Assembly (NCBI GenBank): GCA_951406725.2
Contig: OX597821.1
Location: forward strand, 33,542,001 to 33,606,000
Reading direction: 5' to 3'
Source: Octopus vulgaris
Lineage: Eukaryota
DNA: 64,000 nucleotides
The position numbers were made by a program, and so were the translations under genes. Below are positions 17,805 through 55,832 of this stretch, in pieces. Positions within the stretch are counted from its first letter, which is position 1; each line of letters opens with the position of its first letter. A model generated the notes under the pieces. That model saw only the letters and a program-made list of their open reading frames with translations, ran no database searches and was not told where the DNA came from.

Positions 17805-18039
17805 TGTACTTATATATATAGCAAGTGATCTGAGCTGAGATCGTGTGCTGGAACGAAAACTATTGCAGCGTGGAGGTGTTTATAAGCCATTTAAGAAACA
17901 CATAAAAACCGTTAGATTCACTTCAACATTTAAATTTAATTTGTCAAAATATTTTCGTCGCTTTGAGACCACGACCTGTTCACTGACAAAACTTCATGCT
18001 GCATCTTAAATGGCTTATAAACATCTTCCACGTTGCAAT
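17805..18039 (-). mobile_element. Penelope-style repeat with inverted terminal segment
   Basis: ~35-bp inverted repeat 17862-17896 / 18004-18039 enclosing a hammerhead-like motif; flanked by (TA)n; the 17805-17865 part recurs at ~20195-20252. Confidence 0.55.
17940..17990 (-). ncRNA. Type I hammerhead-like motif with G3/C8 core variant
   Basis: tttgtca-GTGAACA-g-gtcgt(ggtctcaaa)gcgac-GAAA-atat-TT-tgacaaa: 7-bp stem I, 5-bp stem II, palindromic stem III AATATT. Confidence 0.6.
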
Positions 18040-18149
18040 TATATATATATATATATATATGGAGAATTCACGGAAAAAAAAAAAGACAAAGACAGGTGGT
18101 GCAGAAAACAAACGGATGTATTAGTATAACGCTCGGGAACTGAAAAAGT

Positions 18150-18185
18150 CTTTTACATTTTGAGCCTAAGCTCTTCCACAGAAAG
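18150..18185 (-). ncRNA. Decayed minimal hammerhead-like motif (U at position 6)
   Basis: cttt-CTGTGGA-a-GAGC(ttag)GCTC-AAAA-tg-TA-aaag; G12A and cg>tg fit CpG decay. Confidence 0.5.
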
Positions 18186-18247
18186 GAACACAGAAAGAAA
18201 CACGGAGAGAAAAAAAATGTGTGTAGAGGCTAACAATCTATCATGGC

Positions 18248-18296
<49 letters not shown>

Positions 18297-18299
<3 letters not shown>

Positions 18300-18889
18300 G
18301 ATTCTACAATTTAAATTCCCAATTCAACTTACTTTCTTCTTCAATTTCAACTCCCGATCGATGTCCGCAGCAAGTTCTTAAAAATTTATCTTACTATTTT
18401 ATTCGTTGTTACTACGTTTATTCATACATTGTTACGAAAATTTAACCTTTTAGGCTACTTTCAAGCCTTCGCCATAACTTGATTTATCTTTCTATCTCTC
18501 TCTCTACAAAATTTAACCTTAGGCTAGGCTACCTCAAGCCGTAATCCCATCTCTTCCCATCTTTCAGCCATTGGCGGTCTTTTTACTACCTCCTCTTACC
18601 ATTACGATTCTACAATTTAAATTCCCAATTCAACTTACTTTCTCCTCTACTTCAATTTCAACTCCCGATCGATGTCCGCAGCAAGTTCTTAAAAATTTAT
18701 CTTACTATTTTATTCGTTGTTACTACGTTTATTCATACATTGTTACGAAAATTTAACCTTTTAGGCTACTTTCAAGCCTTCGCCATAACTTGATTTATCT
18801 TTCTATCTCTCTCTCTACAAAATTTAACCTTAGGCTAGGCTACCTCAAGCCGTAATCCCATCTCTTCCCATCTTTCAGCCATTGGCGGT
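18297..18889. repeat. Near-identical tandem duplication, period 306 bp
   Basis: 18297-18578 repeated at 18603-18889. Confidence 0.95.
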
Positions 18890-19261
18890 GCGCCCGCCCC
18901 CCACCCCCACCACCAATACCGATGAACACTGTTCTCACCCCCACCACCAATACCGGTGAACACTGTTCTCACCGCCAACACCACCAATACCGGTGAACAC
19001 TGTTCCTCACCCCCCACCACCAATACCAGTATACCCTGTCCTCACCAACTACACCGGATACGCCTTACTCATCTACACCGGGTACGCCCTACTCCCTCCT
19101 CCTCCCCCCACTACCCCTTCTCCTCATATGCTTTCACTGTGAAAAGACAAGCTGCTAGCGCCATAGCTCATCAACTGCCCACCGATCTTACGCTTCCTCC
19201 TGACACTGCCTCATTCCGACTATCCCCTTTAGCACCCTCCCGCCTCGTAATATCCTACGTT

Positions 19262-19615
19262 TTTATTTCTTAGGAACCTACACCAACCCTTCCTGCCATC
19301 GTTCCTCCTTACCCCAACCTTCCCCACTGGTTGCTCCCCTATATTACCCACCTCAACTGGACCCCCCTCCCCAACTCAACTCTAGAATATCTGTATTCTT
19401 TCCTCTACCTAATAACGTTACTCAGTGACGATAACGAATGTCTTTATTTCTTAGGAACCTACACCAACCCTTCCTGCCATCGTTCCTCCTTACCCCAACC
19501 TTCCCCACTGGTTGCTCTCCTATATTACCCGCCTCAACTGGACCTCCCCTCCCCAACTCAACTCTAGAATATCTGTATTTCTTTCCTCTACCTAATTACG
19601 TTACTCAGTGACGAT
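19262..19615. repeat. Tandem duplication, period ~181 bp
   Basis: tttatttcttaggaacctacaccaaccc...ctcagtgacgataa occurs twice. Confidence 0.92.
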
Positions 19616-19749
19616 AAATGCTGTGACTACAAAGACCCGGGCTGCTTTCTGCAGCAATTCCACATACCCCCTACTCATTCTAAGTACCCCGGATCCCCAA
19701 AGTACCCTGGATCCCCAAAGTACCCCGGACCTCGTTGCCCCCGTGCCGC

Positions 19750-19993
19750 TGACACATTAAAATGCTCGAACCGATCGTGACGATGCCGGACCCTCCGGCC
19801 CCTGTGCAGGTGGCACGTAAAAAGCACCCAATCCACTCACGGAGTGGTTGGCGTTAGGAAGGGCATCCAGCCGTAGAAACTCTGCCAGATTCAGACTGGA
19901 GCCTGGTGCGGCCCCTGGCTTCCCAGACCCGGTCAAACCGTCCAACCCGTGCTAGCGCGGAAAGCGGACGTTAAACGATGATGATGATGATGA
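19750..19993 (+). mobile_element. RTE 3' tail fragment
   Basis: ggcacgtaaaaagcacc...gtggttggcgttaggaagggcatccagc...gcggacgttaaac(gat)n, matching the 3' UTR of 25956-28399. Confidence 0.85.
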
Positions 19994-20470
19994 TATATAT
20001 ATATATTACATATATGTGTTTGTGTGTGTGTGTGTGTGTCTTTGTGTCTTTCTTTGTCCTGCTTTATAACTGGTTTGGTATGTTTACATCCTGGTAACAT
20101 AGCAGTTTGGCAGAAGAGACCAATAGAATAAGTACCAAGATGTGTGTGTGTGTATATATATATATATAGATAGATAGATAGATAGATAGATAGATGTACT
20201 TATATATAGCAAGTGATCTGATCTGAAATCGTGTGCTGGAACGAAAACAATTGAAAATAATCTGGTCTGCAATCCACATGTTCATTAATACTGGAGCTGT
20301 GACCCCTCAATGCAAAGAACCAGTTGCTCAAGCTGGAGATACTCTGATCTCTGATTTATTCACCCTGTCAAAAAGTGTGTTAGACGTACAATTTGATTAT
20401 ATATGTCGCCTCGGTTGTTTGGGGAAGAATATATGGTTGTTTTTCTCTCTCTCCATTTGTTTCCCTCACC

Positions 20471-20507
20471 TCTTTCTGTCAAAGAGCATAGGCTCGAAAC
20501 ATTAAGA
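20471..20507 (+). ncRNA. Decayed minimal hammerhead-like motif, same family as 18150-18185
   Basis: tcttt-CTGTCAA-a-GAGC(atag)GCTC-GAAA-ca-TT-aaga; shared downstream gactttttca...gagc. Confidence 0.5.
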
Positions 20508-20597
20508 CTTTTTCATTTTTCCTGAGCATTAAACAAATACACCTTGCTTGTGGTTCCTTCACTTGTCTCTGTATTTTGTTTTTTTGAACATGTGAAC

Positions 20598-20641
<44 letters not shown>

Positions 20642-20644
<3 letters not shown>

Positions 20645-20912
20645 AGGCACAATGGCCCAGTGGTTACGGCAGTGGACTCACGGTTTCGATTACCTGGCCG
20701 AGCATTGTGTGTGTTTATTGCGCAAAAACACCTAAAAGCTCCACGAGGTTCCGGCAGGGGGTGGTGATCCCTGCTGTACTCTTTCACCACTCCTTCTCTC
20801 ACTCTTTCTTCTGTTGGCCTGCTTACTTAGCCATTGGGGTGGCGTCATTCGAAGGCTAAAACAATGTGAATGCATTGTGACCAGCGATGTGTAGCAACAT
20901 CTGATGGTCTGG
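20642..20912 (+). mobile_element. SINE family C subfamily
   Basis: Head ggaggcacaatggcccagtggtt and body aaacacctaaaagctccacgagg; different 3' part. Confidence 0.75.
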
Positions 20913-21271
20913 TATATATATATACATACAACAATATAATTATGGAGAACATATATAGTATATGAGAAGAGAAGGAATAAGAAATACATATGAAACCAAA
21001 CTCATGAATTAAATTTAGAAGACAAGATCAGAATGTATTTATGGTAATGTACGAAATATAATAACTAATTCTTCATAAGCAAAATAATTTATAATTTATG
21101 AATGCTAAAAATTAAAAATATTGTTTCATTATAATTTGATAGCCATAGTCCCTCCTACCAACTACTGTAAATAAATAAATTAGTAAAATATATAATATTG
21201 GTATAGTTCTGCAGACTCTGTGCTAGATGATCAGCGATGCAGAGATGTAGTAGAGAGGTGTTGTTAGAGAA

Positions 21272-21302
<31 letters not shown>

Positions 21303-21559
21303 AAATAAAAATGAAAAATAAACAAAGCATCCAAAAACTAAAAAACGATGGTAATCGTATTATCTGAATACATCCCAATATACTCGTGCGCTTGTAATTT
21401 GTGGCTATTTAAATATTTCTTGTACTAGCTGAATGTAGCCTTCATTTACGAGATTGTTTAATAATCTATTATTCCCAAAATATCTTTTTTTTTGTGCTTC
21501 AATTTCAAAAATATCACCAAAAATATGATCTATACTTCGATTATGTTTGTTGTTGTTAC

Positions 21560-21609
<50 letters not shown>

Positions 21610-21614
21610 GTGTG

Positions 21615-21666
<52 letters not shown>

Positions 21667-22145
21667 TACATACATGCATGCACACACATATTAAATGCAT
21701 GAAGCATCAAGCTGCATTTGGTAAGAGAAACCAAATACAGTCAGTTTCCAAGATATTGCAAAAATGTGTTAGCCATTTCATTTTTAAAAAATCAATAATC
21801 AATGGGGAAAAAAAAATCCTAAAAAGATCATTTGGGATAGACTTAAAAGATAATCCTTATTTTAGAACATGCTACTTAAGATAACAGCCTTGCATGACAT
21901 CAAATGTATTCCAAAACAGTTTCATTTCATGTGTTCTTGCTTTTACTAAGAGAGAGAGACAGGAGAGTCGTTTAAGTTGCATTCATTTGACTTTTTTTCA
22001 ATTTTCTAAAGGAAATTGCATCTAAGCTTGGTAAATAAAGCGCACTGAAAAAAATACAACTTACAAAGGAAATCTAAATGTATAAGTGCATAAATATATG
22101 CGATTTACGTTTCACACACACATACATATATACATAGAGAGGGGT

Positions 22146-22203
<58 letters not shown>

Positions 22204-22369
22204 CATAAAATGCATCAAATATTGTAACTCTTTGTTTCTGACTCTGCCCCTGTAAGAGATGCCCAGGATTGAATGTAGGCAGTATCAGTGGGACACACCC
22301 GGCACTTGAAAGATCCTCACTGTCTTTGTCCAGGTTTCACAGACATTAGATGACTGTTGGTATAACAAT

Positions 22370-23070
22370 AGATGAGTATAGCTATTATTATATGGAAGTG
22401 AAACATGGATACTGACAAAGGAATTATTAAATGGGCTAGATACCTGCTACTCAAGGATGCTATGAATGTCCCTAAATGTAAAATGACAGCAACATATGAC
22501 AACTGAATGCCTTTATGGAGACCCACTGAAAGTTAGGGATCTTTTCGGTTTGAACGGCAGTGTTTTCTAGCGGTGTCATATGAAATTGTCACCCATAATT
22601 ATGACCCTAGTATCGATCTATTGCATTTCAATCTGTTTTAGGGTTAGGGGTGGGGGGAAGGGTATCTTTTTTACTTCACAAATGTAAATAAACCCAATCT
22701 GTTTCTTAAACGAGGGACATATTCATATGGCACAGAATGTTTTTTAACTCAATACACGTCATTGATTGGTTGAAATTGCAGAAATTGAAGAAAAAAATCA
22801 CAAATATCTTACAAACTATAGAATTTTCTCAATAAAGCCAACAGAAAAAGGTGTTTTATAAACACATTCTACCAGTATACGAAGTTTAAAACTTTTTAGT
22901 TACCTAGAAATTATGTCAAAAACTGCCGTTCAAACTGAAAAGATCCAAAGTTAGGCAAAGAAAGTTAGGAAAATCAGGCAAAGACAGCTGCAATTATCTG
23001 GTCACTGTATGTGCCACCCTGAACTGGAAGCATCCAAATCAATCTTATGGAACCCACTTCATGTCCAGTA
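22370..23070 (+). pseudogene. Old RTE LINE ORF C-terminal fragment split by a MITE
   Basis: Reads LLYGSETWILTKELLNGLDTCYSRML*...CLYGDPLKV | KVRKIRQRQLQLSGHCMCHPELEASKSILWNP. Confidence 0.75.
22537..22946. mobile_element. GG-TIR MITE
   Basis: Both TIRs; perfect 8-bp TSD aaagttag. Confidence 0.9.
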
Positions 23071-23677
23071 AGTTCACCAACATCAATTCACCACAGGGAA
23101 AGTTCTCTGTCATCAATTCATCATTTTTTTCTTTCAATAAAATAGTTTTTGATTATTAATGGTGAGATACTATGTATATGTTTTCTTGGTAAACTTCCTC
23201 CATGCCAAACTTTCTTCATGGTGAATTGGTGATAGTGGTCTTTCCTGCAATCCTTCGTGGTGGCGTAAGGAGAGGAAAATGTCAGCTTAATTGCAGACAC
23301 TGGCCTGGAACATATTCAAGACCTTGAGGTAGTGATGTTGGACCAAGAGGTGTAGTGGGTGGACTTTGTTGCTGCAGCTTGACTTGGAACCCAGCCATAA
23401 GAATAAGAATACAGGTGCAGGTTTGTCATCTTACAGCTGGTCTTTGATTTCTATACTGGATGAAGGTATTGGCATACAGACATTGCTTTATATTATCCTG
23501 GACTTGAAATACAGCTTCTGAGATATGTACACTGATTGACTTTTGTCTTGTCTGAGATCAACAAGTTATCCTTGGGTTCCACCAATTGACTACATCATAC
23601 TAACTCAAACAAAAAGGGACAAATTGGGTACTTTAATCTGGGGTACACTATCTCTTAAAGAAAGAAAACAAAAATGC

Positions 23678-23906
23678 TTAACCCTTTAGTGTTCGCATTA
23701 TTCTACCAAAACAAATGCTTTTTTATCCACATTGTTTTGAACTAATCATGCCTTATCTTGTAGGTATGAGATTTTGATGAGGTAGCTGTTAATTTTTAAA
23801 ACGATATTGTAGGGTTGGCGTGAGAGACCAGATCTGGCCAGTTTGAACATAAAACAGGCAGAATACTTTTGGCCGGATATGGCCGGTTTAAATGCTAAAG
23901 GGTTAA
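23678..23906. mobile_element. piggyBac-like MITE (TTAA-CCC...GGG-TTAA)
   Basis: ttaaccctttag ... ctaaagggttaa; same family at 59109-59336. Confidence 0.8.
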
Positions 23907-24198
23907 AGGCCCTTTGGTCATATATCTACTCAGTCAAGACTGACCTGAGGGTAAAAAATAACAACAGTCATGCAATGGTAGTTATCAAATATTAAATACC
24001 TTTTCATCATTTTCTATTCTCTTTTCAAGCTTCTTGTTATTGTTTTTATTATTAATTTTTCTGTTGTTGTTACCCTTTATACATCTTATATATTTTGGGG
24101 GGTCAAATGTCTTCCAGTGTTTTGCTCATTACCTCACCGTCCCCACCACATTTGTCTACCTCTCACTACTTCTTGCCACCCCTCCCCCTCCTCGTATC

Positions 24199-24231
<33 letters not shown>

Positions 24232-24469
24232 CCACCACTAGCTATATTACATGTCGAGAGGGGAGAGGGATGCCATCTCACCTCATCATATCAGTCACAA
24301 ATCAGCATCATAACACACACACACACCACATCATATTCTATGCAGTTAAAACCACACCAAACATAATAGATCATGCCATACCACTGCCACCACCATCCCT
24401 ACTGCCGCAACCATGGCGATCACAGTGACTACCACAACCACCACCACCACTACCACTGCCATTACAATG

Positions 24470-24885
24470 ACACCACACTGTACAGCAACCAAACAATACA
24501 CCACACACATACGCACACACATTCACACACACACATACACACCACATACACACATACACACATACACACCATACACACATGCAGACCATACTGTACAGCA
24601 ACACACAACCAAACAATACACCGCACACATACGCACACACACATGGACACACACACATACACACCACATACACACATACACACATACACTGTACAGCAAC
24701 ACACAACCAAACAATACACCACACACACATACACACACTCACACACACACACATACACACCACATACACACATACACACATACACTGTACAGCAACACAC
24801 AACCAAACAATACACCACACACACATGCACACACACTCACACACACACACACATACACACCTACACACATGCAGACCATACTAAA
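24470..24885. repeat. CA-rich minisatellite, 4 units of ~96-113 bp
   Basis: Anchor actgtacagcaac...aaccaaacaatacacc at 24477, 24590, 24688, 24784. Confidence 0.9.
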
Positions 24886-25734
24886 CACCACATCAACTCT
24901 TAATGCCACACACAAACAAAATGTAAAAAAAAAAAAAAACCTCATAAAACTTTTGCTACATTAAACCGCACCAGACAGACACCCAACACCGCACCAGACA
25001 AGCCTTACACCACACTACACCACACCAAATCGTCACCACACAAAACCTATCCAAATAACATACCAACACTGCGTCACACCAACCCTACCATACAACAACC
25101 ATATCATGACACACCATGCTTATATACATCACACACCAGATATCTCAAAGTATAAATTACATTATACATACTACAGAGAACTATTCACTACGTAGTACAT
25201 TACATATGCCACAGTTGTACACATATTGTATTTAATACAATATCTGATAGAGTAGACACTGTATTGTCCTGTATACCCAGCCCCACCACACACACACACA
25301 CATACACACAACATACCACAATGCTGCATCTCACACTAGTTACAAACCCTTCATTAAAAATGCATTATTTCTGAAAGAATTTTAATTCAAACCATTTATA
25401 ATAGGAAGAATTACTGGTGCGTATTCAAGTGTGAGTGTCTTTGTGTGCACACTTATATATTACACAGTTGATATATATATATATATATATATATTAACAC
25501 ACTGTTATGCATATGAAGGCAGTGTGGTCAGTTTGGTGGTTGTCTTTAACTGTGTCTTGCTACACAACTTAGAGAATTCACAACACCAACATTTATATAT
25601 AAGTGTGTGTGTGAGTGTGTATAAACACATATATATATATATACATATACATATATATATATTGGAAGGTTTGGAGATGATGTACAGGTATTATATATTA
25701 GAAGAAATGAGGTAATCAGAAGATCGGTAAATAC

Positions 25735-25920: not shown

Positions 25921-25955
25921 ATATACATATATATGTATATATACATATATATATA

Positions 25956-28396
25956 TCATCATCATCATCATCATCGTTTAATGTCCGCTTTCCATGCTAG
26001 CATGGGTTGGACGGTTCAACTGGGGTCTGGCAAGCCCAAAGGCTGCACCAGGCCAGTCAGATATGGCAGTGTTTCTACAGCTGGATGCCCTTCCTAACGC
26101 CAACCACTCCGAGAGTGTAGTGGGTGATTTTATGTGCCACCAACACAGGTGCCAGACGAGGCTGGCAGACGGCCACGCTCGGATGGTGTTTTTTATGTGC
26201 CACCGACACAGGTGCCAGACGAGGCTGGCTGACGGCCACGCTCGGATGGTATTTTCTTATGTGTCACCGACACAGGTGCCAGATGAGGCTGGCGGACGGC
26301 CACGCTCGGATGGTGTTTGTTACGTGCCCTCAGCACGGAGGCCAGTCGTTGCGGTACTGGCTACGGTCACGTTCGGATGGTTTTCTTATGTGCCACCGGC
26401 ACTGGTACCACAAGGATACAAATTCCATTGATGTTCATCTATTGATTTGGTTCGATTTGATTCGATTCGATTCTCACTTGCCTCAACAGGTCTTCACAAG
26501 TGTCACAAGAAGGAAGGTATGCACAGGTGGACTGACTACGTCCCAGGTAGGGGCCACGGATTATGGCTTCACTAGTCTTGCCGGGTCTTCTCACGCACAG
26601 CATACTTCCATAGGTCTCGGTCTCTAGTCATTTCCATGGTGAGACCTAACGTCCGAAGGTTGTGCTTCACCACCTCGTCCCAGGTTTTCCTGGGTCTACC
26701 TCTTCCACGTGTTCCCTCAACTGCTAGGGATTGGCACTTTCTCACACACCTATCTTCATCCATTCTCGCCACATGACCATACCAGCGCAATCGTCTCTCT
26801 TGCACACAACAACTGATGCTTCTTAGGTACAACATTTCTCTCAAGGTACTAACGCTCTGTCGAGTAAGTACACTGACATTACACATCCATCGGAGCATAC
26901 TGGCTTCGTTCCTCACGAGCTTACGCATGTCCTCAGCAGTCACGGCCCATGTTTCACTGCCATGTAGCATAGCTGTTCGTACACATGCATCATACAGTCT
27001 GCCTTTTACTCTGAGCGAGAGGCCTTTAGTCACCAGCAGAGGTAAGAGCTCCCTAAACTTTGCCCAGGCTATTCTTATTCTAGCAGTTACACTTTCAGCG
27101 CACCCACCCCCACTACTGACTTGGTCACCTAGATAGCGGAAGCTATCAACTACTTCTAGTTTTTCCCCCGGAAAGTGACGGAAGTTGTTTTCTGCAGATT
27201 TTCGGAGGTCAATGCTCCAGAGCACCTGCCACATACAAAAACTATCTTCCCAGTTAGCCTACCTTTGACATTGCTGCACCTCTTATGTGTCCATAGCTTA
27301 CACTGGGTACATCTTATAGAGTTTCTACCTACACCTTTTCTACAGATCGAGCAGGGCCATCTTCCTGAGGATATTTGTGGATTTTCTACCTTTCTACTTA
27401 TTAGTACTTTGGTTTTAGCTAGGTTGACTCTAAGGCCCCTCGATTCTAAACCCTCCTTCCACACCTGGAACTTCTCCTCCAGTTCTGATAGTGACTCAGC
27501 GATTAGAGCGAGGTCGTCAGCATAGAGGAGCTCCCAGGGGCAACCTGTCTTGAATTCCTCCATTATTGCCTGGAGGACTATGATAAATAGGAGGGGGCTG
27601 AGTACTGAACCCTGGTGGACCCCAACCTCTACTTTGAATTCTTCTGTGTACATGTTGCCAACTCTAACCTTACTTACGGCATCTCTGTACATGGCTTGCA
27701 CAGCCCTCACCAGCCATTCATCTATCCCTAGTTTCCTCATTGACCACCAGATGAGGGATCGGGGGACCCTATCAAAGGCTTTCTCCATGTCAACGAAAGT
27801 CAGGTACAGGGGCTTATCTTTGGCTAGGTATTTCTCCTGCAGCTGCCTTACCAGGAATATAGCATCAGTGGTGCTTTTCCCTGGGACAAACCCAAACTGC
27901 ATCTCATCTAAACTAACTCTCTCTCTAATTAGTTGGGCTATGACCCTCTCCGTAACCTCATTACCTGATCCAACAGCTTGATACCTCTGTAATTATTTGT
28001 ATCCAGGGCATCACCTTTACCTTTGTAGCAGTTGACTAGTATGCTGCTACGCCAGTCATTGGGTATGACTCCTTCGTGTATCACCTGGTTGACTATACGG
28101 GTGACTAGGTTATAGCCGACACTGCCAGATATTTTGAGCATCTCTGCAGTAATTCCTGATGGGCCTGGGGCTTTCCCTGTCTTCATGCTTCTAATTGCCT
28201 TAGCTACCACGGAACTATCAACTCGAATAGCTGGTCCCTCTGTTGGGTCAACATTTGGCAGACTCTCTTTATCCCATTCATTTTCTTTATTCAGCAACCT
28301 TTCATAGTGGCATCTCCAAACCTCTCTCTTTGCATCCTCATTTAGCGCAAGTGAACCATCATCCATGCGAACACACTTCTCTCCTACCACATCACG

Positions 28397-28399
<3 letters not shown>
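25956..28399 (-). mobile_element. 5'-truncated RTE-clade LINE (RT, C-terminus, 3' UTR, (GAT)n tail)
   Basis: RT motifs, ~600-nt 3' UTR with tandem repeats and CCATGCTAGCATGG palindrome; both ends lie in (TA)n. Confidence 0.93.
26572..28399 (-). pseudogene. RTE reverse transcriptase ORF with two frameshifts (~27960, ~27165)
   Basis: GKAPGPSGI, NYRGIKLL, QFGFVPGKSTTDAIF, FVDMEKAFDRVPR, VGVHQGSVLSPLLF, LLYADD, FRYLG, HGSETW, RLRWYGHV, RGRGRPRKTW. Confidence 0.93.
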
Positions 28400-28432
<33 letters not shown>

Positions 28433-28599
28433 CACACAGCTAGCCAAAACTTCAAAGTCATTGTCAACATTATTTTTGTTAAAGAATTATATATATTATT
28501 GGCTAAACTGGTAAAATGACCATTCCGAAATATAACAATATCTGTTTCAACACATGACTTCACATAAAAAATCTTGCCCAACAAATATATAAACGTGTG

Positions 28600-28682
<83 letters not shown>

Positions 28683-28748
28683 CCTCGTGTGTACCGTTGG
28701 CGATTTTTTTCCTCTGTCTTCCCTTCTCTGGATCTTTCCTTCTCCTAT

Positions 28749-28783
28749 GTTTCTGACGAAGAGCTCCACTCGAAACGTTAAAC
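28749..28783 (+). ncRNA. Minimal type I hammerhead ribozyme, intact core
   Basis: gttt-CTGACGA-a-GAG(ctcca)CTC-GAAA-cg-TT-aaac; palindromic stem III ACGT. Confidence 0.75.
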
Positions 28784-28875
28784 CCTCCTTCTTTCCTGAG
28801 CATCCAATAATACTATATTTGTTCCACGTCCTCGTGTTGTTGTGTTTTCATGTTTGGATTAACTTAATACATATA

Positions 28876-29067
28876 TATATATTAAAAATGGGGAACATTG
28901 GTTTATGGGATTACCTTAGGTTTTCCGTCCATAAAAGTTTAGCTTTATGGTGTATCGTCAGATCCCAAAAACCTGTTGGCTCGGAGGGGAAAAGCCTCAC
29001 TCTAAGCCCTTTATTGACGGGAAACCTAAGGTAATCCATAAACTGGCCTTCCCCATTTTTAATATAT
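28876..29067. repeat. ~58-bp inverted repeat with ~75-bp spacer
   Basis: atatattaaaaatggggaa...ccgtccataaa versus tttattgacggg...ttccccatttttaatatat. Confidence 0.85.
28907..28966 (-). ncRNA. Degenerate type I hammerhead-like motif
   Basis: gggat-CTGACGA-taca-ccataaa...tttatgg-acggAAAA-cc(taa)gg-TA-atccc; the second arm keeps GAAAcctaaggTAatcc. Confidence 0.5.
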
Positions 29068-30890: not shown

Positions 30891-30929
30891 CAACAGTACA
30901 TAGAATATGCACAGGAAGTCTTAAAAAAA

Positions 30930-31200: not shown

Positions 31201-32159
31201 TTACCAAATTCTTCTTTATTTGAAACAGAGTCCAGTGTATCTCAAAAGAAATATGGTAACAAAGGGTTTACTCTTTACTCTTTTTACTTGTTTCAGTCAT
31301 TTGACTGCGGCCATGCTGGAGCACCGCCTTTAGTCGAGCAAATAGACCCCGGGACTTATTCTTTGTAAGCTCAGTACTTATTCTATCGGTCTCTTTTGCC
31401 GAACCGCTAAGTGACGGGGACGTAAACACACCAGCATCGGTTGTCAAGCAATGCTAGGGGGGCAAACACAGACACACAAACACACAAACATACATATACA
31501 TATATATATACATATACGACAGGCTTCTTTCAGTTTCCGTCTACCAAATCCACTCACAAGGCATTGGTCGGCCCGGGGCTATAGCAGAAGACACTTGCCC
31601 AAGATGCCACGCAGTGGGACTGAACCCGGAACCATGTGGTTGGTTAGCAAGCTACTTACCACACAGCCACTCCTGTTAAATAATATTTCTTCAGCTTTTA
31701 CTCTGTTTCTTCAGAGATTTCTGTTGTTCTTAATTTAAAAAAAAATTATAGTACCATTATATTAAATTTTAATTATTTATCATTCATACTGAGAAAGAAA
31801 TTACACTTATAGATTATCATTGTACACATTGTATGAATTGGTTTACATTACTGGTTGCCAATATTCAAATAGTAGTCAATGGCCTATTATTTTAATTCCC
31901 ATTTGACATGATACAAAAATAAATTCAAAAATTTTTCTTATATCTAGAATTTTCTTGTGTGTATAGGGTGGGTGTGGATGTTGGGGGTAATTGATTAGGA
32001 ATTGATTACCATTTCACACTGTCCAATACACCCACTTTCAGATTTGTTACTAAGCAATTTATAATTATAAACCTTTTAGTATATATATATATGTAATGAT
32101 AAAAAAGTATGAATCAGCAAATTTTCAATGACTGAAATCTAGCAATACATAGAAATACA

Positions 32160-32899
32160 GTTCTATATTTAAAAGATGAGGAATTATGTACATTATTTAC
32201 ATTCAACAGCTATTTGTCGTCATCATCTTTGTTGTTGACATGTTTCGGCTGATATACCCTCCAGCCATCATCAGGTGTCTTGGGGAAATTTCGAACCTGG
32301 GTTCTCATTTCTAAGGTATTTTTTGATGTTGTTATTATAATTATAATAATAATAATTATTATCATTGAGTGAGAGAGCAGTGCATGCCATCAAAGTGACA
32401 CTGGGGTAAAATATACGAAGCCCAGTATACCCATCATGGCTACCCATCTGATAAGGATACACTAGGTACATGCATCACAACCACGTGTGCGCGACATGGT
32501 GATCTCATATCAAGATAAACAGCACATGACCTTGCAGGTAGGGGCTCAGTTACAATTTTCTTCTGGTCGAGTAACCCATCCCACTCAAAAGGTCCCTGAA
32601 TAAGGATGTTGAACGAAACACTCATGTTTCCGAGGTGAATTATTCAAACCCCAAAGAATCCCTTTCAACACATGGCTATGATGTTCCCCACTACTTCTGC
32701 TCGTGATCAGAGATGCACATATCGTCAGCCACTAAGGGGCATGCTCATCTGGTTAAGGTCAAACATGTGGCAAGCAAATCTGTGGTATTGAGCAGAATAT
32801 TTGCTGTAGCGCATCTTTTATACTAAGACAAAACAATGTACATGATAACTCTTCCAATCAGTTAAGATCAGAAGCCATGAGAGCCACTGCCTGGTATTG

Positions 32900-32943
<44 letters not shown>

Positions 32944-32972
32944 TCACTGTCTGGAATCGAACTCAGAATCTT
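32160..32972 (-). mobile_element. Putative tRNA-headed SINE with 3' hammerhead, split by an insertion
   Basis: B box GAGTTCGATTCC (~32953-32964), (TAA)n linker, then gacac-CTGATGA-t-GGCTG(10 nt)CAGCC-GAAA at 32237-32279. Confidence 0.55.
32363..32901 (+). mobile_element. ~540-bp insert within (ATT)n, possibly a Dong/R4 3' end or derivative
   Basis: Flanked on both sides by ATT/TAA repeats; GC-richer than surroundings; no ORF. Confidence 0.4.
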
Positions 32973-45790: not shown

Positions 45791-45859
<69 letters not shown>

Positions 45860-47641: not shown

Positions 47642-47689
<48 letters not shown>

Positions 47690-48547
47690 TTATGTGAGTG
47701 TGTCTTTGTGTCTGTGTTTGTCCCCTCACTATCGTTTGACAACTGATGCCGGTATGCTTACATCCCTATAACTTAGCAGTTTTGCAAAAGAGACCGATAG
47801 AATTAGTACTAGGCTTACAAAGAAACAGTCCTGGGGTTGATTTCTTTGACTAAAAAAAATTGAAACAAGTAAATAAACAAATAATTAAGACTGCTCTGAT
47901 TAGCTGCAAAAAAAATTTCAAATATCAAGTTGATTTGCTATTTTCTGGTTACAGAGAGAGAGGGGGAGAAAGAAAGAGAGAGAGAAAGAGAGGGAGAGGG
48001 AGAGAGAAAGAATGAGAGAGAGTGAGAGAGATATAGAGAGAAAGAGAGCAAAAGGGAGAGAGAACCAGCTGGTTTAAACATAATATTTACTTTTTTCTTC
48101 ATGGTGAAGCTTGAAATGTGTTTATTAAGAAGACACACCTGTAAATTTACCTGTGTATGGCGTTTAGTCCATAGTTCTATGTCATTTTTAATACTCCACC
48201 GCTGCAAGTTAAATAATATTGATTTCTAAAATCTTGGCACAAAGCTACAAATTTTTGAGGGAGGTCGGTGAATGGATAGGTGGATTGGTGTGTGTGTGTT
48301 TGGGGGGAGGCGTGTTGATTTAATTTCTCTAACCCTCCGTCTCACCCCCACTGCAGCACTTGACGGGGGTATTTAGTTTATCAGTCTCGGTGAAATGAAA
48401 TGAAATGAAAAAGCAGCATTTTGGTACAACAGAACATGAAAGGAATCTACCTGAAGACTTCAAGGCATTTTGTTTAGTGCTTCATTGATTCTGTTATCTA
48501 ATTCTACCTGCTCTATTATCTATAATATCAGCAATACCAAATCCACT

Positions 48548-48897
48548 GCCACCAACCACCATCATTACCACCACCATCACCACCACCACCATCACCACTG
48601 CTGCTGCTGCCACCACTGCCTCCCCCCCTCCACACTACCACTGCTGTCATCCCCTGTGCTGCCGTCATCACTGGCACCACAACCAAAACCACCACCACCA
48701 AAACCACCACCACCACCAAAACCACCACCACCACCACAACCAAAACCACCACCACCACCACCACCACCACCACCACCACCACCACCACCACCACCACCAC
48801 CACCACCACCACCACCACCACCACCAAAACCACCACCACAAAAACCACCACTACCACCACCCCTACCAAAACCACCACCAAAACCAATATCACCACC
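48548..48897. repeat. (CCA)n-rich microsatellite region
   Basis: Read directly. Confidence 0.95.
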
Positions 48898-50619
48898 TTT
48901 GTGTTACCAGTTTCTGCAAGTTTCTAGACATTGGCAACTATTATCAGCAAATCTGCACAGTCTTCCTATCTGCAAGCAATAGCAGCCAAATTTCCCTCAG
49001 ATCGCAAACTATTATCCTAAAAGTGGCAACGACCTCACTCCTCTGCTACCATCACCACCACCACCACCACCACCACTACCACAGCATGCCAAAAGACAGG
49101 ATGGTTGCACACACATTGCTTTTGAATCATTGGTCAGCTTGGTCAAAGGTGATTTGGTGAGCATAGCGGGGATAGTGATAGCAGCGGTGATGGTGGTTGC
49201 ATTGGCTAAACAATATCAGTAACAACAACAACAACAACAGCAACAGTAAGAGTCACTTACTATTATGACACTAGAACACTGAACAGTATATAGCATAATC
49301 CATATGCTAAATGCAAAAGTGATTGTCAAGGTAGTAACACAGATGTATCTTTATAGGGTGGTATAGCTTCGATTATCAATGATTTAATAATACATTCCAA
49401 ACAGCTGGCACACTCTCATGGGTTGATTTATATCAGTTACCAGCTGTTGGCTTATATTATAAAAAGGCATCTTTCTAGGTGGTTTAAAATATGGTTTAAA
49501 ATATAGGTGGAGAAACCATCAGCTTTATGGTCATGTACTGTTTTTTTTAAGCATTCATGTGAGGTTTACTAGAAGCTTTGCATGTCTTTAAAAGAATCAT
49601 TAGCAAATTACAAAAACATCGTTACTGAGTCTCTGTGTTGTTTGTATCAATGAATGATGTTACATTCTCCTTTGTTTTGTTGTAATAGCATTATAACTAT
49701 TCAGTGGAGGCGCAATGGCCCAGTGGTTAGGGCAGCGGACTCGTGGTCGTAGGATCGCGGTTTCAATTCCCAGACCGGGCGTTGTGAGTGTTTATTGAGC
49801 GAAAACACCTAAAGCTCCACGAGGCTCCGGCAGGGATGGTGGTGATCCCTGCTGTACTCTTTCACCACAACGTTCTCTCACTCTTACTTCATGTTTCTGT
49901 TGTGCCTGTATTTCAAAGGGCCGGTCTTGTCACTCTCTGTGTCACGCTGAATATCCCCAAGAACTGCGTTAAGGGTACACGTGTCTGTGGAGTGCTCAGC
50001 CACTTACACGTTAATTTCACGAGCAGGCTGTTCCGTTGATCGGATCAACCGGAACCCTCATCATCGTAACCGACGGAGTGCTTCCATAACTATTCACAAT
50101 TCCTTATTTATAAGAAGACCCATACTGCACAGCAGAAGTGTTAAAACCAGTCTGTCTGCTGGCAGAAAATACTCATGGCAGTGCCACGTAAAAAGCACCA
50201 TGTGGTGCCATGTAAAAGTGCCTGTGTGGTGCCATGTAAAAGCACCCCGGAGCTTGCTTCCAAGCTATATGGTTTCGGGTTCAGTCCCACTGCGTGGCAC
50301 TTTGGGCAGGTGTCTTCTGCTATAGCCAACCGAAGCTTTGTGATTGAATTCGGCAGGCGGAAATTACTGCCGTGTGTGTATATGTGCGTGTAGGTGCTCG
50401 TGCCTCTCCGAAAGAGAGAGAAGGAGAGAGGGCAGCAACATGTAAAAGCACCCAGCACACTCTGCAAAGTGGTTGGCATTAGGAAGGGCATCCAGCCATA
50501 GAAACCATACCAAATCAGACTGGAGTCTGGTGCAGCTTGCCAGGTCTGGTCAAACTGTCCAACCCATGCCAGCATGGACAACAGATGTTAAATGATGATG
50601 ATGTTGATGATGATATATA

Positions 50620-51150
50620 TTGCAGCAGATGCACAGGGGCAATAAACACTACAGTTGCTCCGAAAACAGATTCCATCACATGCCAGGGTGAGAAACAAGA
50701 AGTGGCTGATAGCTTCCGCTACTAAGGCAACCAAGTCTGTAGTGGGGGTTGTTGCTCAGAGAGTGTTACCACTAGAAGAAGGATAGCCTGGGCAAAGTTC
50801 AGAAAGCTTCTACTACTGGTGACAAAGGGCCTCTCATGCAGAGTGAAAGGTACAAACTGCCGTGCTTCACGACAGTGAAACATGGGCCATGACTGCTGAG
50901 GACATGCATAGGCTCGAAAGAAATGAAGCTAGCATGATCCGTTGGACGTGTAATGTCAGTGTGCACACACGTCAGAGTGTAAGCACCTTGAGAGAAATAT
51001 TGGACATAAGAAGCATTGGATGTGGCATGCATGAGAGACGTCTGCACTGGTATGGTCATGTACTACGGATGGATGAGGAGAGCTGTGTGGAGAAGTGCCA
51101 CTCCCAAACAGTGGAAGGAACCCATGGTAGAGGGAGACCCAGGAAGACAT
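50620..51150 (+). pseudogene. Older RTE fragment of the same family as 26572-28399
   Basis: CSRCTGA...EVADSFRY; LHDSETWAMTAEDMHRLERNEASMIRW...RLHWYGHVLRMDEE...GRGRPRKT. Confidence 0.85.
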
Positions 51151-53250
51151 GCACACACATATGCATGCATGCACACATGCACACACATGTACACACACAC
51201 ATATACACACACATGCATACGCATACAATAGGCTTCTTTCAATTTCTGTCTACAAAATCCACTCAGAAGGCTTTGGTTGGCCCAGGGCTGTACTGCAGTA
51301 AAAGACATTTGCACATGTTAAAATGCAGTGGGACTTCTGGGTGGGATTGAACCTGGATCCATATGACTGTAAAGTGAGCTCTGTAATATCTATTCCCATC
51401 AATAGTGTAAATATTGGTACTTATATAAGTAACACATAAGTAACATACATGTATGTGTGTGGGCGTGTAGAATGTATGTATGTGAGTGTGTGCATAATGT
51501 ATATAAGAATAGGGGTATCTGAGTGTGTTTATGAGAGTGTGCCTGTGTGTATATATCCATGCGTATAGTGTGTGTGAGTATGAGTATGTGAGTGCATGTT
51601 CTAATTTCATAAATGATACTTTGTAGACTGTCTGACACCATCGTTAGTAATAACATCAAAAAAATTACAAACAACAGCCAGAACTAAAGATAACAAAAGG
51701 TAATCTAATTTACATTCTCTTATGCCCATATGACATTTGCCACTGTCATTATGTTATTCTTCCTGGGTGGAGAACTTTCTACGTGTTTCAACAATGCAGT
51801 GGGATGTAATTTCAGACAGAAAACATTGTAACAATTTTTAAAATTATAACATTTAATACCAAAGTCAAAGAATGGAAAATAAAGGATAAAAAAAAAAGAA
51901 AACATATAGAGAAAAATAGAACAAAGAGAACATAGAGAAAAATAGAACAAATTATATATTTTCCAAGAATATTCCTCTTCCACAGACTTGGCCTTTAGAT
52001 CATTCAGACTTTCAGGAACCTTTACCAGAACACACACACACAATGATACATTTGGAAGATTTGGTGTTGTTGTTATTTGACTTCAGGTCAAACTGAAGTA
52101 AACAGACTAATGATCAAAGATGTTCCAGCCATGCCCATTATTATTATTATTATTATTTAACATCTGTTTTCCACACAAGCTAGATGTGATGGTTTGATAG
52201 GAGCTGGTGATCCAGAGGTCTGTGCCATGTTCTACTGTCTGCTTTAGCATGGTTTCTATGACTCAATGCCCTTCTAATGCTAAATGCTGTACAGAGTGTA
52301 CTGGGTGCTTTTTTCATGTGGCACCAACACTAGTGAGGTTACTGAGTAACTTGCAAGACAAAACCTCCTCAAATGAGAGAAGTAGTAATGAGTGAGGGAG
52401 ATGGCTTTGTGCTGAGTGATGAGAGATTCACTGGATATTTTTGATCACTGATTTGTCTCCCTGGCCTTCAATTACTCAATCACCCATTCAGTTGTATCAC
52501 TGATTTCTCTGTTGGCTCTTCTTGAGATGTGCCATCTCTCTCTCCCTTACATTCTCTTCATTCAACAACCTCCTGAAGTTATATTTCAATACCTCTTTCT
52601 TTCTGATGTCAAAATCAGCGCAATTACATCCCTGTCATTCTGTACATACCCCTCTTGATTGTTGTTGTTTGTTCCTTCTCGAGCCATGCCAGGCTCATAA
52701 GGGCCGGTTTCCTGGTTTCTTGGTATATAGGTTCCCCACCTGGATGGGACACTGGTCCGTCGCAGGTAAGCTGCAAGATGCAGGAGGAAAGAGTGAGAGA
52801 TAGTTGTGGCGAAAGAGTCAGCAGAGGTTCGCCATTACCTTCTGCCGGAGCCACGCGGAGCTTATGTGTTTCGCTCATAAACACACACATCGTCCAGTCT
52901 GAGATTTGAACCCGCGATCCCTCGACCGTGAGTCCGCTGCTCTAACCACTAGGCCATGTGCCTCCACCTCTCTTGATTCTCTCTTTGCAATTCAGAATGC
53001 CTCACATCTCTCATACTCCCATCACAGAAACTATGCAAACCGTTTTTTGCTTCTCCCTTCGCTAAGTATACATGCTGTCTCATTTCTCTTTCAACAATCT
53101 AGATATTACAGGCACCCCCCCCCCCACACTAACTAAACATAGACGCACATAGAGATATATGGATGTGCAAATGAAGACACATACAATAGAAATACAAAAT
53201 GACTGACGGTTAGTAAAGAGAGAAACACAAATAAGAAAGAAGAAAACAAA

Positions 53251-53295
53251 GGACCACTGATGCGGTCACAGGAGTGTGACGAAAGAACTCTGGCC
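53251..53295 (+). ncRNA. Type I hammerhead-like motif, A9C variant
   Basis: ggacca-CTGATGC-g-GTCACA(ggag)TGTGAC-GAAA-gaac-TC-tggcc. Confidence 0.65.
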
Positions 53296-53512
53296 AAAAT
53301 AAGATTAAGATTAATGTAAAAAATAAATAACACTGAAGCAAAGTAACACCAAATATATAGTGTGTGTGTGTTTTTATTGGTTAAACTGGCAAAATGACCA
53401 TTCCAAAATACAACAAAATCTAAAGTTATTCATTCATATAAGGCAGTGAGCTAATAGAATCATTAGCACACTGGGGAAAATACTTTGCAGCATTTCATCC
53501 ATTTTTACATTC

Positions 53513-54205
53513 AGCACGACCTTCGAACTTTAGGTCTCACTGAGGAAATGACCTGCGACCGAGACCTTTGGAAATATGCTGTGCATGAAAAGACCAGGCA
53601 GGACAAGCGAGTCCAGCCCACTTATGCATGCCTTTCCTCCCTTGGACACACAAAGACCTGTTGAGGCAAGCGAAGTCGATATCGAACCTCATCCGACGAC
53701 AGGCACCTATGCCCACCCCCCCTTTGCTTGCAAAGACCTGTTGGGGCAAGTGAAATCGGAATCGAAATTGAACCAATCCTATGACTTACACCTGGCAGAT
53801 GCCAGGACCCCTGGACTGGAGATACGTAAAAAGCACTATCCGAATCGTGGCCGATGCCAGTGCAGCCTCGATTGGCTTCCGTGTCGGTGGCACGTAAAAA
53901 GCACCATCCGAATCGTGGCCAAAGCCAGTGCCGCCTCGACTGGCTTCCGTGCAGGTGGCACGGAAAATGCACCAATCCGACCGTGGCTGATGCCAGCCTC
54001 GCCTGGCTCCAGTGCAGGTGGCACGTAAAAAGCACCCACTACACTCACGGAGTGGTTGGCGTTAGGAAGGGCATCCAGCTGTAGAAACATTGCCAGATAA
54101 GACCGGAGCCTGGTGCAGCCTTCTGACTTCCCAGATCCCCGGTCGAACCGTCCAACCCATGCTAGCATGGAGAACGGACGTTAAACGATGATGATGATGA
54201 TGATG
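53513..54205 (+). mobile_element. 5'-truncated RTE (last codons plus full 3' UTR) inserted in a family A SINE
   Basis: HDLRTLGLTEEMTCDRDLWKYAVHEKTRQD; UTR repeats; (GAT)n; SINE head at ~53441-53512 resumes at 54206 (gagttcaaattc). Confidence 0.88.
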
Positions 54206-55796
54206 AGTTCAAATTCTGTCAAGGTTGACTTTGCTTTTCATCTTTTTGCCTACCAATTTCACCCAAATATATATCCAAATATATATATAAATACAATTTT
54301 AAATGACTAAAGTAATTTATTCATTTATTCATGATTCATTATTATTTATTCATTTATTCATTATTCATTATTCATTATTATTTATTCATTATTCATTATT
54401 ATTTATTCATTATTCATTTATTCATAAAACAATTTTAAATGACTAAAGTAATGAGTTCATTTATTCATAAAATAATTGGACAAAACTGTTTCTCTTTGTT
54501 GTATAATGTGGTGCTGATGATAAAAATCAGATGCTAAACAAATAAATAAATAAAAAGTATTTGCTTCAGTCATTAGACCGCGTGGTCATGCTGGGGCACT
54601 TCCTTGATGAATTTTTAGTTGAATGAATTAACTCCAGTACTTATTCTTTTAAAGCTTTGTACTTACTTGCTGAACTGATAAATTATGGGGACGTAAACAA
54701 ACCAACACCGGTTTGTCATGCAGTGTTGGGGGACAAATACACACACACATATGCATGCATACACACACACACATATATACATACTGCCTGACTGGCCCTC
54801 GTGCCAGTGACACGTAAAAGCACCCACTAAACTCTCGGAGTGGTTGGCATTAGGAAGAGCATCCAGCTGTAGAAACTCTGCCAGATCAAATTGGAGCCTG
54901 GTGCAGCCATCAGGTTTGCCAATCCTCAGTCAAATCGTCCAACCCATGCCAGCATGGAAAGTGGACGTTAAATGATGATGATGACGACGACGATGATATA
55001 TATATATATATATAAAGCATAAAGGCCCTTTTCAGTCATGAATGACCATGGAATTGCACCCAGAAAGATATCCTCTGAGACACAAGGTTGTTTATGGAAG
55101 ACCAGCAGTTGCCTATGCATACCAGCCTTGGGCAAGTGTCTTTTACTATAGGGAAAGGCAAAAATTGATGCAGCTTGGCACCAGTGACATCGCAACTGAT
55201 TTCTACAGCTGAGTGAACTGGAGCAACAGAAAATAAAGAGACTTGCTCAAGAACACAACACATAGCCTGGCCTGGGAATTGAACTCACTACCTCATGATT
55301 CTGATCCTGATACTCTAACCATTGAGCTATGCACCTTTATATATATATATATATATCATGATGACGATCATCATCGTTTAACATCCGCTTTCCATGCTAG
55401 CATGGGTTGGACGATTTTGACTGAGGGCTGGTGAACCAGATGGTTGCACCAGTCTCCAATCTTGATTTAGCAGAGTTTCTACAGCTGGATGCCCTTCCTA
55501 ACGCCAACCACTCCGGGAGTGTAGTGGGTGCTTTTTATGTGCCACCTGCACGGGGGCCAGTCAGGCGGTACTGGTAACGACCTTGCTCGAATCCTTTTAC
55601 ACATGCCACCAGCACAGGTGCCAGTAAGGCGACTTTGGTAACGATCACACTTGAATGGTGCCCTTTTACATGCCACTGGCACGGAAGCCAGTTGGCTGCT
55701 CTGGCAACAATCACATTGGGATGGTGCTCTTGGCACGAACAAAGGACGTGGTACAAGTACTGTATTATCAGAGGCTCAGGAAAGGAAGGAAAGAGG

Positions 55797-55832
55797 ATTT
55801 AATGTTTTGAGCAAAAGCTCTTCTTCAGAAAC
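55797..55832 (-). ncRNA. Decayed minimal hammerhead, same family as 28749-28783
   Basis: gttt-CTGAAGA-a-GAGC(tttt)GCTC-AAAA-ca-TT-aaat; shared flank ttggcgattttcttcctccgtcttcccttc. Confidence 0.6.

What the first reader, a model, noticed from the sequence alone, without database searches (positions are those of the whole stretch)
17940..55832. Eight small hammerhead-like motifs from about six repeat families in 38 kb
Motifs at 17940, 18150, 20471, 28749, 28907, 32237, 53251 and 55797 share type I topology and mostly one extra base after position 9 and a tiny or palindromic stem III, but have unrelated flanks and different cores (canonical, G3C8, U6, C9). Most lie in or near TA/TG microsatellites. 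PLE-associated minimal hammerheads are established. This density and core diversity suggest a large, under-described set of non-autonomous ribozyme retroelements that could also cleave host pre-mRNA or pair in trans through palindromic stem III.
Basis: partly seen in the sequence, partly recalled or inferred. Interest (0 to 1): 0.75.

Follow-up and report, generated by a model that had tools for sequence, protein, structure and literature searches.

The report
Penelope hammerheads with altered catalytic cores
The eight motifs are hammerhead-type RNA folds in the end repeats of five families of Penelope-like jumping genes that left an estimated 190,000 copies in this octopus genome; this is a known kind of element, but most copies carry inherited core changes that likely slow or stop self-cutting, and the elements kept spreading anyway.

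Summary
All eight motifs are present. They come from five lineages, not from unrelated flanks: four motifs are one clade. The window is typical of its genome: 82 core-spanning copies in a 1.2 Mb sample give about 190,000 genome-wide, and P(8 or more in 64 kb) is 0.11. A relaxed descriptor finds 36 hits against 0.13 in shuffles. Three lineages (A, C, E) run into Penelope-like GIY-YIG/RT coding sequence, so they are mostly truncated ends of autonomous elements. Only B (fixed 5' end) and D (tRNA-like head) look non-autonomous. Topology, extra base, palindromic helix III, many families per genome and (TA)n targeting are already published. What I did not find in print is that variant cores are lineage traits: U6, C4, G3-C8, and C9 in a family with 1,265-1,271-codon open frames. 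They make up 22 of the 36 descriptor hits. Copies do not pile up at the cut site, so they were likely made from uncut RNA. Five of the eight window copies are decayed. Cleavage, host-RNA cutting and trans pairing are untested.

The parts
17779..18039 (-). Family B element: body 17779-18005 with the long 3' tail, plus an inverted partial 3' copy 18004-18039, between (TA)n runs
17940..17990 (-). Family B hammerhead: G3-C8 core, extra G, 5-bp stem II, palindromic helix III strand, U17, 7-bp stem I; predicted cut between 17947 and 17946; matches the family majority
   Evidence: G3 in 38 of 38 copies, C8 in 37 of 38; the pattern allowed 2 substitutions
18040..18244 (-). Subfamily A3 copy; hammerhead 18150-18185 with the family U6 core plus private G12A and a broken palindrome (decayed)
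20427..20600 (+). Old subfamily A3 copy; hammerhead 20471-20507 with U6 and private G8A (decayed); 3' end at (AT)21
28681..28869 (+). Subfamily A1 copy; hammerhead 28749-28783 with canonical core (family majority is C4), stem II cut to 3 bp, ACGU helix III strand, U17; the only window copy with a fully canonical core
28877..29067 (-). Family C element: hammerhead 28907-28966 (long stem II, 3-bp stem III, probable G12A) with an inverted partial copy 29002-29067 that would fold back on it
32144..32331 (-). Family D body without its tRNA-like head; hammerhead 32237-32279 carries a 3-nt deletion over the cut site
   Evidence: 11 of the first 100 listed matches have this shorter form
53104..53439 (+). 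Family E 3' end; hammerhead 53251-53295 with C9 and a non-palindromic helix III strand, equal to the family majority
55743..55960 (-). Subfamily A2 copy; hammerhead 55797-55832 with G12A and a broken palindrome (decayed); 3' end replaced by another repeat; upstream limit approximate

Best explanation
The eight motifs are minimal type I hammerhead folds in the pseudo-LTRs of five Penelope-like retroelement lineages, left as short dispersed copies that were likely reverse-transcribed from uncut RNA by the elements' own RT and GIY-YIG endonuclease. Shown: family membership, links to coding sequence for A1, A3, C and E, inverted arms, two alternative 3' ends (B, D, E), (TA)n targeting (A1, A3, B), and 5' ends upstream of the ribozyme. 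Inferred: the endonuclease nicks AT-rich DNA and the RT starts at an internal site about 100-170 nt past the ribozyme, as shown for the anole element. It then either stops early or runs out of template because it started in the 5' pLTR, which gives copies of about 200 nt with a preferred 5' end. The master elements fixed U6 (A3), C4 (most A1), G3-C8 (B) and C9 with a broken palindrome (E). I expect these to be slow, protein-gated or dead ribozymes whose fold is kept but whose cutting is not needed for copying. D is likely a SINE-like passenger: a pol III-type head joined to a Penelope-type tail. Most individual copies are decaying and are unlikely to cut host RNA efficiently.
For: First-look candidates 2,874, 3,176, 1,583, 3,518 and 1,155 for A1, B, C, D, E. 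33,359 exact matches to one A-clade core pattern, control 0. E: RT and GIY-YIG between two inverted copies; two direct C9 motifs 4.58 kb apart around a 1,265-codon frame. A3: continuous homology from the endonuclease to the motif in 6 of the 30 loci fetched for its upstream part; RVT_1 passes its cut-off in L325. A1: GIY-YIG end 2.4 kb upstream in L324, shared with L325 at 82-87%. C: GIY-YIG frame in L337, 81.5% over 422 nt with L343 up to the motif. B: the 31-codon frame in its tail aligns with the start of E's ORF (36%, E=3e-4 pairwise); 29 short and 25 tailed ends. 3' ends within 40 nt of (TA)4: A1 20 of 27, A3 20 of 25, B 7 of 10, random 11%. 5' boundary within 6 nt of the cut site: A1 0 of 28, A3 1 of 23, B 0 of 14, D 0 of 15, E 1 of 4 hits. 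C9 in 26 of 26 motifs matched in 22 of 30 loci chosen by the endonuclease protein. U6 in 90 of 95 A3 copies, C4 in 95 of 134 A1 copies (loci partly chosen by similarity). A1 versus A3 identity: 0.71 in the motif, 0.46 upstream (shuffled 0.49), 0.60 downstream; one compensatory pair in stem I. Published support: PMC4209133, PMC8557442, PMC11167929.
Against: No cleavage data, so 'slow or dead' rests on published mutational work in other hammerheads (A6C below 0.1 per minute, U4C reduced but viable, PMC3088659; C3G/G8C partial rescue, PMC11167929). I found no paper on A9C or A6U. No parent ORF was found for B or D, and none was sought for A2. The A1 link rests on two loci, the C link on two. Only one compensatory pair was seen, which is a single event, and stem II hardly varies. 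The lack of copies at the cut site could also mean that cut RNA is simply a poor template. One of 4 E hits and 1 of 23 A3 hits do start at the cut site. Three E copies have A9, scattered on the tree. Clade names rest on motif reading, not on a tree with reference elements.
Confidence: 0.8

Rival explanations
1. The short copies are self-propagating non-autonomous elements (solo pLTRs or SINEs) that are transcribed on their own and borrow the Penelope proteins.
For: B: 24 of 38 copies start at the same octamer about 59 nt before the cut site, the other 14 are shorter, and none shares further upstream sequence except its own inverted arm. D: pol III A and B boxes 45 nt apart (1 of 100,000 shuffles); a B box upstream in 7 of 17 sampled copies and in 6 of the 7 that reach the profile's 5' edge. 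A1: 16 of 28 hits begin between -121 and -99.
Against: A1, A3, C and E have graded longer copies that reach coding sequence. A preferred 5' end is also what RT initiation in the 5' pLTR of a full-length RNA would give (inference from PMC11167929). No test of whether short copies form their own clade was run.
Confidence: 0.3
2. The variant cores are fully active ribozymes in vivo, rescued by dimer formation or by the element's protein, and they process tandem element RNA. Cut products are simply not the template.
For: G5, G8, A9, G12-A15.1, U16.1 and both stems are kept between A1 and A3 while position 7 takes all four bases. G3-C8 is a compensatory swap with partial activity, and the anole ribozyme cuts only with its protein (PMC11167929). 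U17 is common in published families (PMC4209133 supplement).
Against: A6 and U4 changes lower activity strongly in other hammerheads (PMC3088659). E combines C9 with a helix III strand that cannot self-pair, while a diverged sister copy has A9 and a perfect palindrome (L191; one copy only). Monomer folding of A1, A3 and D pairs the core strand with the helix III strand.
Confidence: 0.3
3. The motifs act on the host, cutting pre-mRNA from introns or pairing between neighbouring copies.
For: About 68 core-spanning copies per Mb. A1, A3 and D share the same ACGU helix III strand, so cross-family pairs are possible in principle.
Against: Five of eight window copies are decayed. The shared duplex is worth -1.7 kcal/mol. 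Published minimal motifs show no monomer activity and low dimer activity (PMC4209133). No host exon was found in the window.
Confidence: 0.08
4. The motifs are chance matches in AT-rich, repeat-rich DNA.
For: At two core mismatches the window gives 5 hits against 3.2 in shuffles. No Rfam hammerhead family appears among the 150 listed of 218 hits for the window or in a 401-nt stretch.
Against: 36 against 0.13 in the 1.2 Mb sample; every one of the eight is recovered by a family profile; 33,359, 622, 56 and 3,616 exact pattern matches with control 0.
Confidence: 0.01

Closest known systems
Minimal hammerheads of metazoan Penelope-like elements (Cervera and de la Pena 2014, PMC4209133; parts 1-2 of 4 and part 2 of 3 of supplement file 2 read; file 1 not searchable)
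   Same: Type I fold, extra base between 9 and 10.1, G10.1-C11.1, palindromic 15.2-16.2, frequent U17, several families per genome, mostly single copies, few in full elements, pairs on opposite strands.
   Different: The 44 of 56 aligned representatives I saw have only CUGANGA (41) or U3-A8 (3) cores, and were found with such descriptors. Here U6, C4, G3-C8 and C9 are lineage traits and make up 22 of 36 descriptor hits. Counts there were about 2,000-9,000 per genome.
Small hammerhead variants linked to Penelope-like retrotransposons that cleave as dimers (Lunse, Weinberg and Breaker; PMC5785218)
   Same: By its title, the same class: reduced stem III, Penelope association, dimer cleavage.
   Different: Not held; only the title was seen, in a reference list. 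It may already include octopus sequences or core variants. This is the main gap in the novelty claim.
Poseidon element of Anolis carolinensis (Frangieh et al. 2024, PMC11167929; passages read)
   Same: Ribozyme in the pLTR near the ORF start, two RT start sites that define a tail, AT-rich targets, uncut RNA as the main template, no reads ending at the cut site.
   Different: Its core is canonical and the dispensability was shown with engineered mutants in vitro. Here natural master elements carry the changes.
Neptune, Nematis and Hydra clades (Craig et al. 2021, PMC8557442; passages read)
   Same: C-terminal GIY-YIG; CX2-5CxxC linker in A3 and E; CxxC and CxH motifs in C; inverted 5'-truncated copies; tail; (TA)n targeting.
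   Different: The paper reports canonical hammerheads in these clades. Clade assignment here is by motif only.
Metazoan non-LTR retrozymes (Cervera and de la Pena 2020, PMC7229834, passages; Li et al. 2026 preprint 10.64898/2026.07.22.740005, parts 1-2 of 5)
   Same: Non-coding, type I hammerhead, proposed Penelope origin.
   Different: Retrozymes are head-to-tail tandem units with canonical, efficiently cutting ribozymes and circular RNAs. These copies are solo or inverted and do not start at the cut site.
Schistosome SINE-like hammerhead elements (as reviewed in PMC6765202; passage read)
   Same: Family D joins a pol III-type promoter to a hammerhead.
   Different: D carries a minimal hammerhead, Penelope-type inverted copies and two 3' ends, and is dispersed, not tandem. 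It may be one of the octopus tRNA-derived SINEs named in the 1990s (OR1/OR2; recalled; one search found no paper).

Membership tests
PLE minimal hammerhead (PMC4209133) | Type I fold: stems I and II enclosing the core, helix III minimal | tested here: met
   90% of cells paired on 15 A-clade copies against 16-46% for slid controls
PLE minimal hammerhead (PMC4209133) | One extra base between positions 9 and 10.1 | tested here: met
   8 of 8 window motifs; C's stem II base is irregular
PLE minimal hammerhead (PMC4209133) | Palindromic positions 15.2-16.2 or loop 3 | tested here: inconclusive
   Met for A1, A3, D and B; near-palindromic in C; not met in E
PLE minimal hammerhead (PMC4209133) | Consensus core CUGANGA or the U3-A8 swap | tested here: not met
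   Met for C, D and A2; not met for A3 (U6 in 90 of 95), most A1 (C4 in 95 of 134), B (G3-C8) and E (C9). These are variants, not plain members.
PLE minimal hammerhead (PMC4209133) | Self-cleavage as a dimer | not testable with these tools
   Needs in vitro assays
Penelope-like element | RT plus GIY-YIG ORF upstream of the pLTR | tested here: met
   E and A3 (62, 65, 67) with both domains; A1 (65) and C (77, 78) with the endonuclease end only; not found for B or D; A2 not searched
Penelope-like element | Inverted 5'-truncated copies and an optional 3' tail | tested here: met
   Inverted arms in B, C, D, E; two 3' ends in B, D, E
Neptune / Nematis / Hydra clades | Linker and zinc-finger motifs, and place in an RT tree | tested here: inconclusive
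   Motifs read from natural frames against the text of PMC8557442; no tree with reference elements
Non-LTR retrozyme | Head-to-tail tandem units, each with a hammerhead | tested here: not met
   No tandem array at the eight sites; copies in fetched loci are solo or inverted
Non-LTR retrozyme | Unit ends set by the cut site; circular RNA | tested here: not met
   5' ends within 6 nt of the cut site in 2 of 84 hits; circular RNA itself not testable
tRNA-derived SINE (family D) | Internal pol III A and B boxes at the 5' end | tested here: met
   box consensus recalled
tRNA-derived SINE (family D) | Recognisable tRNA cloverleaf or source tRNA | tested here: inconclusive
   ARAGORN default 0 of 16 loci; relaxed 1 of 13 heads against 0 of 260 shuffles; no Rfam tRNA hit
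tRNA-derived SINE (family D) | 3' end shared with an autonomous partner | tested here: inconclusive
   Penelope-type tail and inversions seen; partner ORF not found

The most novel reading that the evidence does not exclude
Several Penelope-like lineages in this octopus independently fixed catalytic-core changes (U6, C4, C9 with loss of the dimer palindrome) and went on to make tens of thousands of copies from uncut RNA. The hammerhead fold in these elements is then kept for a job other than cutting, such as RNP recognition, and canonical descriptors miss most such motifs. Family D would be a tRNA-headed SINE mobilised by Penelope machinery.
Probability: 0.35. Interest if true: 0.65.

Novelty: new variant of a known kind. 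Interest (0 to 1): 0.45.

Why it matters
What the hammerhead does for Penelope-like elements is an open question: the published options are processing of tandem RNA, protein-gated cutting, or parasitism of the element. This genome offers a natural series of master elements with single core changes, one of them in a young family with whole open frames, so the question can be tested with a handful of short RNAs. It also shows that canonical searches would miss about 60% of the intact motifs in the sample, and it points to a SINE that may depend on Penelope proteins. The window itself is ordinary for this genome, and an effect on host RNA is unsupported.

Tried and rejected
Rfam gave no hammerhead hit in the rows listed. 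A descriptor on the window alone cannot separate decayed copies from chance. Two B pairs 4.3 and 5.2 kb apart on one strand were fetched as possible full elements; neither holds a Penelope ORF. The endonuclease fragment upstream of A1 in L305 is not shared with other A1 copies and was rejected as a link. Host exons: 68 unmasked frames of 48 residues or more gave no Pfam match above cut-off, so the intron question stays open. Sequencing runs: no RNA holder listed on record. Contigs of four runs guessed to be RNA cover 28-29 of 30 bins of a full E element and show no pile-up of ends, but contigs cannot show strand, ends or level, so this is no evidence. A parent for B could not be sought by protein because its 31-residue frame is under the search minimum. 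The tree of E copies included three rows that are not true E (L207, L275, L191) and is poorly resolved; it shows only that the three A9 copies do not group. Rows left out: one search kept hits reaching at least 25 nt past the cut site at 78% identity or more, and its B and D lists each include the reference itself; one search counted 235 copies that passed a pattern, partly from similarity-chosen loci. Papers on these cores or on octopus hammerheads: searches found none that describes them; the 2026 octopus repeat annotation (PMC13282606, parts 1-2 of 3) does not mention ribozymes in what I read, and its supplement was not seen.
Full report
Setting. The window is G000:C8:33542001-33606000 in a 2.8-Gb genome. 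A protein 97% identical to a family E ORF is labelled Octopus vulgaris by its source, so I treat the genome as an octopus. At least 61% of the window is repeat.

Observation. All eight motifs are present and read as type I hammerheads with an extra base after position 9. They fall into five lineages. A holds four: A1 at 28749, A2 at 55797, A3 at 18150 and 20471; their flanks align. B is 17940, C is 28907, D is 32237, E is 53251. Five copies are decayed: G12A at 18150 and 55797, probably G12A at 28907, G8A at 20471, and a 3-nt deletion over the cut site at 32237. That deletion form is 11 of the first 100 listed among 3,616 exact matches. Only 28749 has a fully canonical core.

Chance and density. 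In the window alone a strict descriptor gives 1 hit against 0.02 in 60 shuffles; at two mismatches it gives 5 against 3.2. I fetched 120 evenly spaced 10-kb stretches. A relaxed-core descriptor finds 36 motifs there against 0.13 in 30 shuffles. By my count of that list, 10 are canonical, 4 are U3-A8, 10 are U6, 9 are C4 and 3 are G3-C8. Family profiles find 82 core-spanning copies (A1/A2 27, A3 25, D 17, B 10, E 3, C 0), or 68 per Mb, which extrapolates to about 190,000 plus or minus 48,000. Eight in 64 kb has P=0.11 under resampling. One exact A-clade pattern has 33,359 matches and its control none. Of the first 100 listed, all from the first 5 Mb of C1, I count 62 U6, 22 C4, 1 with both and 15 canonical.

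Links to Penelope-like elements. E: a degenerate RT and GIY-YIG lie between two inverted copies. L332 has two direct C9 motifs 4.58 kb apart around a 1,265-codon frame, and L333 has a 1,271-codon frame. The first ATG of the L332 frame lies about 100 nt after the cut site, so the optional tail is the ORF start. A3: homology runs unbroken from a GIY-YIG with a CxxxxCxxC linker through about 1 kb of low-complexity UTR to the motif in 6 of 30 loci, with RT upstream. A1: a related endonuclease end lies 2.4 kb upstream in L324 and is shared with L325. C: a GIY-YIG frame with CxxC and CxH motifs, as described for the Hydra clade, precedes the motif in L337 and L343, 2 of 12 loci fetched. B: no parent found. 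24 of 38 copies start at one octamer and none extends further, but the 31-codon frame in its tail resembles the start of E's ORF. D: no parent found. A head with pol III A and B boxes sits upstream of an (AAT)n spacer in 6 of the 7 sampled copies that are long enough. Inverted arms occur in B, C, D and E, two 3' ends in B, D and E. 3' ends sit at (TA)n in A1 (20 of 27), A3 (20 of 25) and B (7 of 10) against 11% at random, but not in D (1 of 17).

Template. If the ribozyme set the 5' end, copies would start at the cut site. They do so in 2 of 84 hits; most start 50-120 nt upstream (one search agrees). This matches the anole element, where uncut RNA is the main template and catalytic mutants still insert (PMC11167929). 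I infer that the common 200-nt copies come from RT initiation at the internal site followed by early stop, or from initiation in the 5' pLTR of a full-length RNA.

Variant cores. They are inherited, not decay. U6 is in 90 of 95 A3 copies and C4 in 95 of 134 A1 copies. C4 forms a CpG, so some canonical A1 copies may be decay products (inference). C9 is in 26 of 26 motifs matched in loci chosen only by the endonuclease (8 of 30 loci gave no match to the pattern). G3 is in 38 of 38 B copies. Between A1 and A3 the motif is better kept than its flanks, with one compensatory pair, so the fold was under selection. E also lacks a self-pairing helix III strand, while one diverged sister copy has A9 and a perfect palindrome, which hints at loss in the lineage that is young today. 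Published data on other hammerheads give low activity for A6C and U4C (PMC3088659) and partial activity for the 3-8 swap. I found nothing on A6U or A9C.

Comparison with what is known. Cervera and de la Pena describe the topology, the extra base, the palindrome, many families per genome, mostly single copies and low dimer activity. U17 is common in their alignment. Craig et al. describe inverted copies, tails and (TA)n bias. A coral has over 6,000 motifs in 16 families. So the phenomenon is known and the canonical-core density is not exceptional. The lineage-fixed U6, C4, G3-C8 and C9 cores and a tRNA-headed Penelope-type passenger were not found in ten literature searches. The closest paper, by Lunse et al., could not be read and may cover some of this. 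These elements are not retrozymes: no tandem units and no ends at the cut site.

Host effects. No host exon was found, strand bias in introns could not be tested, and the shared helix III duplex is weak. I rate host-RNA cutting unlikely.

Verdict. Real, and mostly a known kind of element at genome-typical density. The new part is the set of inherited core variants in successful lineages, which makes the purpose of Penelope hammerheads directly testable. Novelty: new variant of a known kind. Interest 0.45.

Noticed in passing
window 14507-14608 (-): U6 snRNA copy, 93.7 bits, with substitutions in conserved positions; probably a pseudogene.
   Followed up: no
window 26572-28486 (-): Frameshifted LINE with RVT_1 and a PHD-like finger; it looks RTE-type (name recalled).
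   Followed up: partly
window 8429-8557 (-): Fragment of a further Penelope-like GIY-YIG end, 53% identical to family E, interrupted by another repeat; no ribozyme downstream.
   Followed up: partly
window 20180-20253 (-), 28496-28590 (+), 12888-12970 (-), 32935-32972 (-): Pieces of the same families without the ribozyme: B tail, E tail, A1 3' end and D head.
   Followed up: partly
L160:2210-2500 and family D generally: tRNA-like head with A and B boxes, an (AAT)n spacer and a Penelope-type hammerhead tail; often present as head-to-head inverted pairs; not targeted to (TA)n.
   Followed up: partly
L155, L160, L163, L117, L173, L125, L161: At least five further hammerhead families in the 1.2 Mb sample, one with the U3-A8 core and a CGCG loop (4 hits).
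   Followed up: no
L168:4560-5700 (-) and L297: Two more GIY-YIG ends, each followed by its own canonical minimal hammerhead, read by eye.
   Followed up: no
Families A1, A3 and D: In monomer folding the 5' core strand pairs with the helix III strand, a likely inactive hairpin; U6 supplies one such pair in A3.
   Followed up: partly
Family B 5' end (window about 18005) and short 3' end (window about 17835): The fixed 5' octamer is complementary over 6 bases to the short 3' end, which may explain the fixed boundary and the frequent fold-back copies.
   Followed up: no
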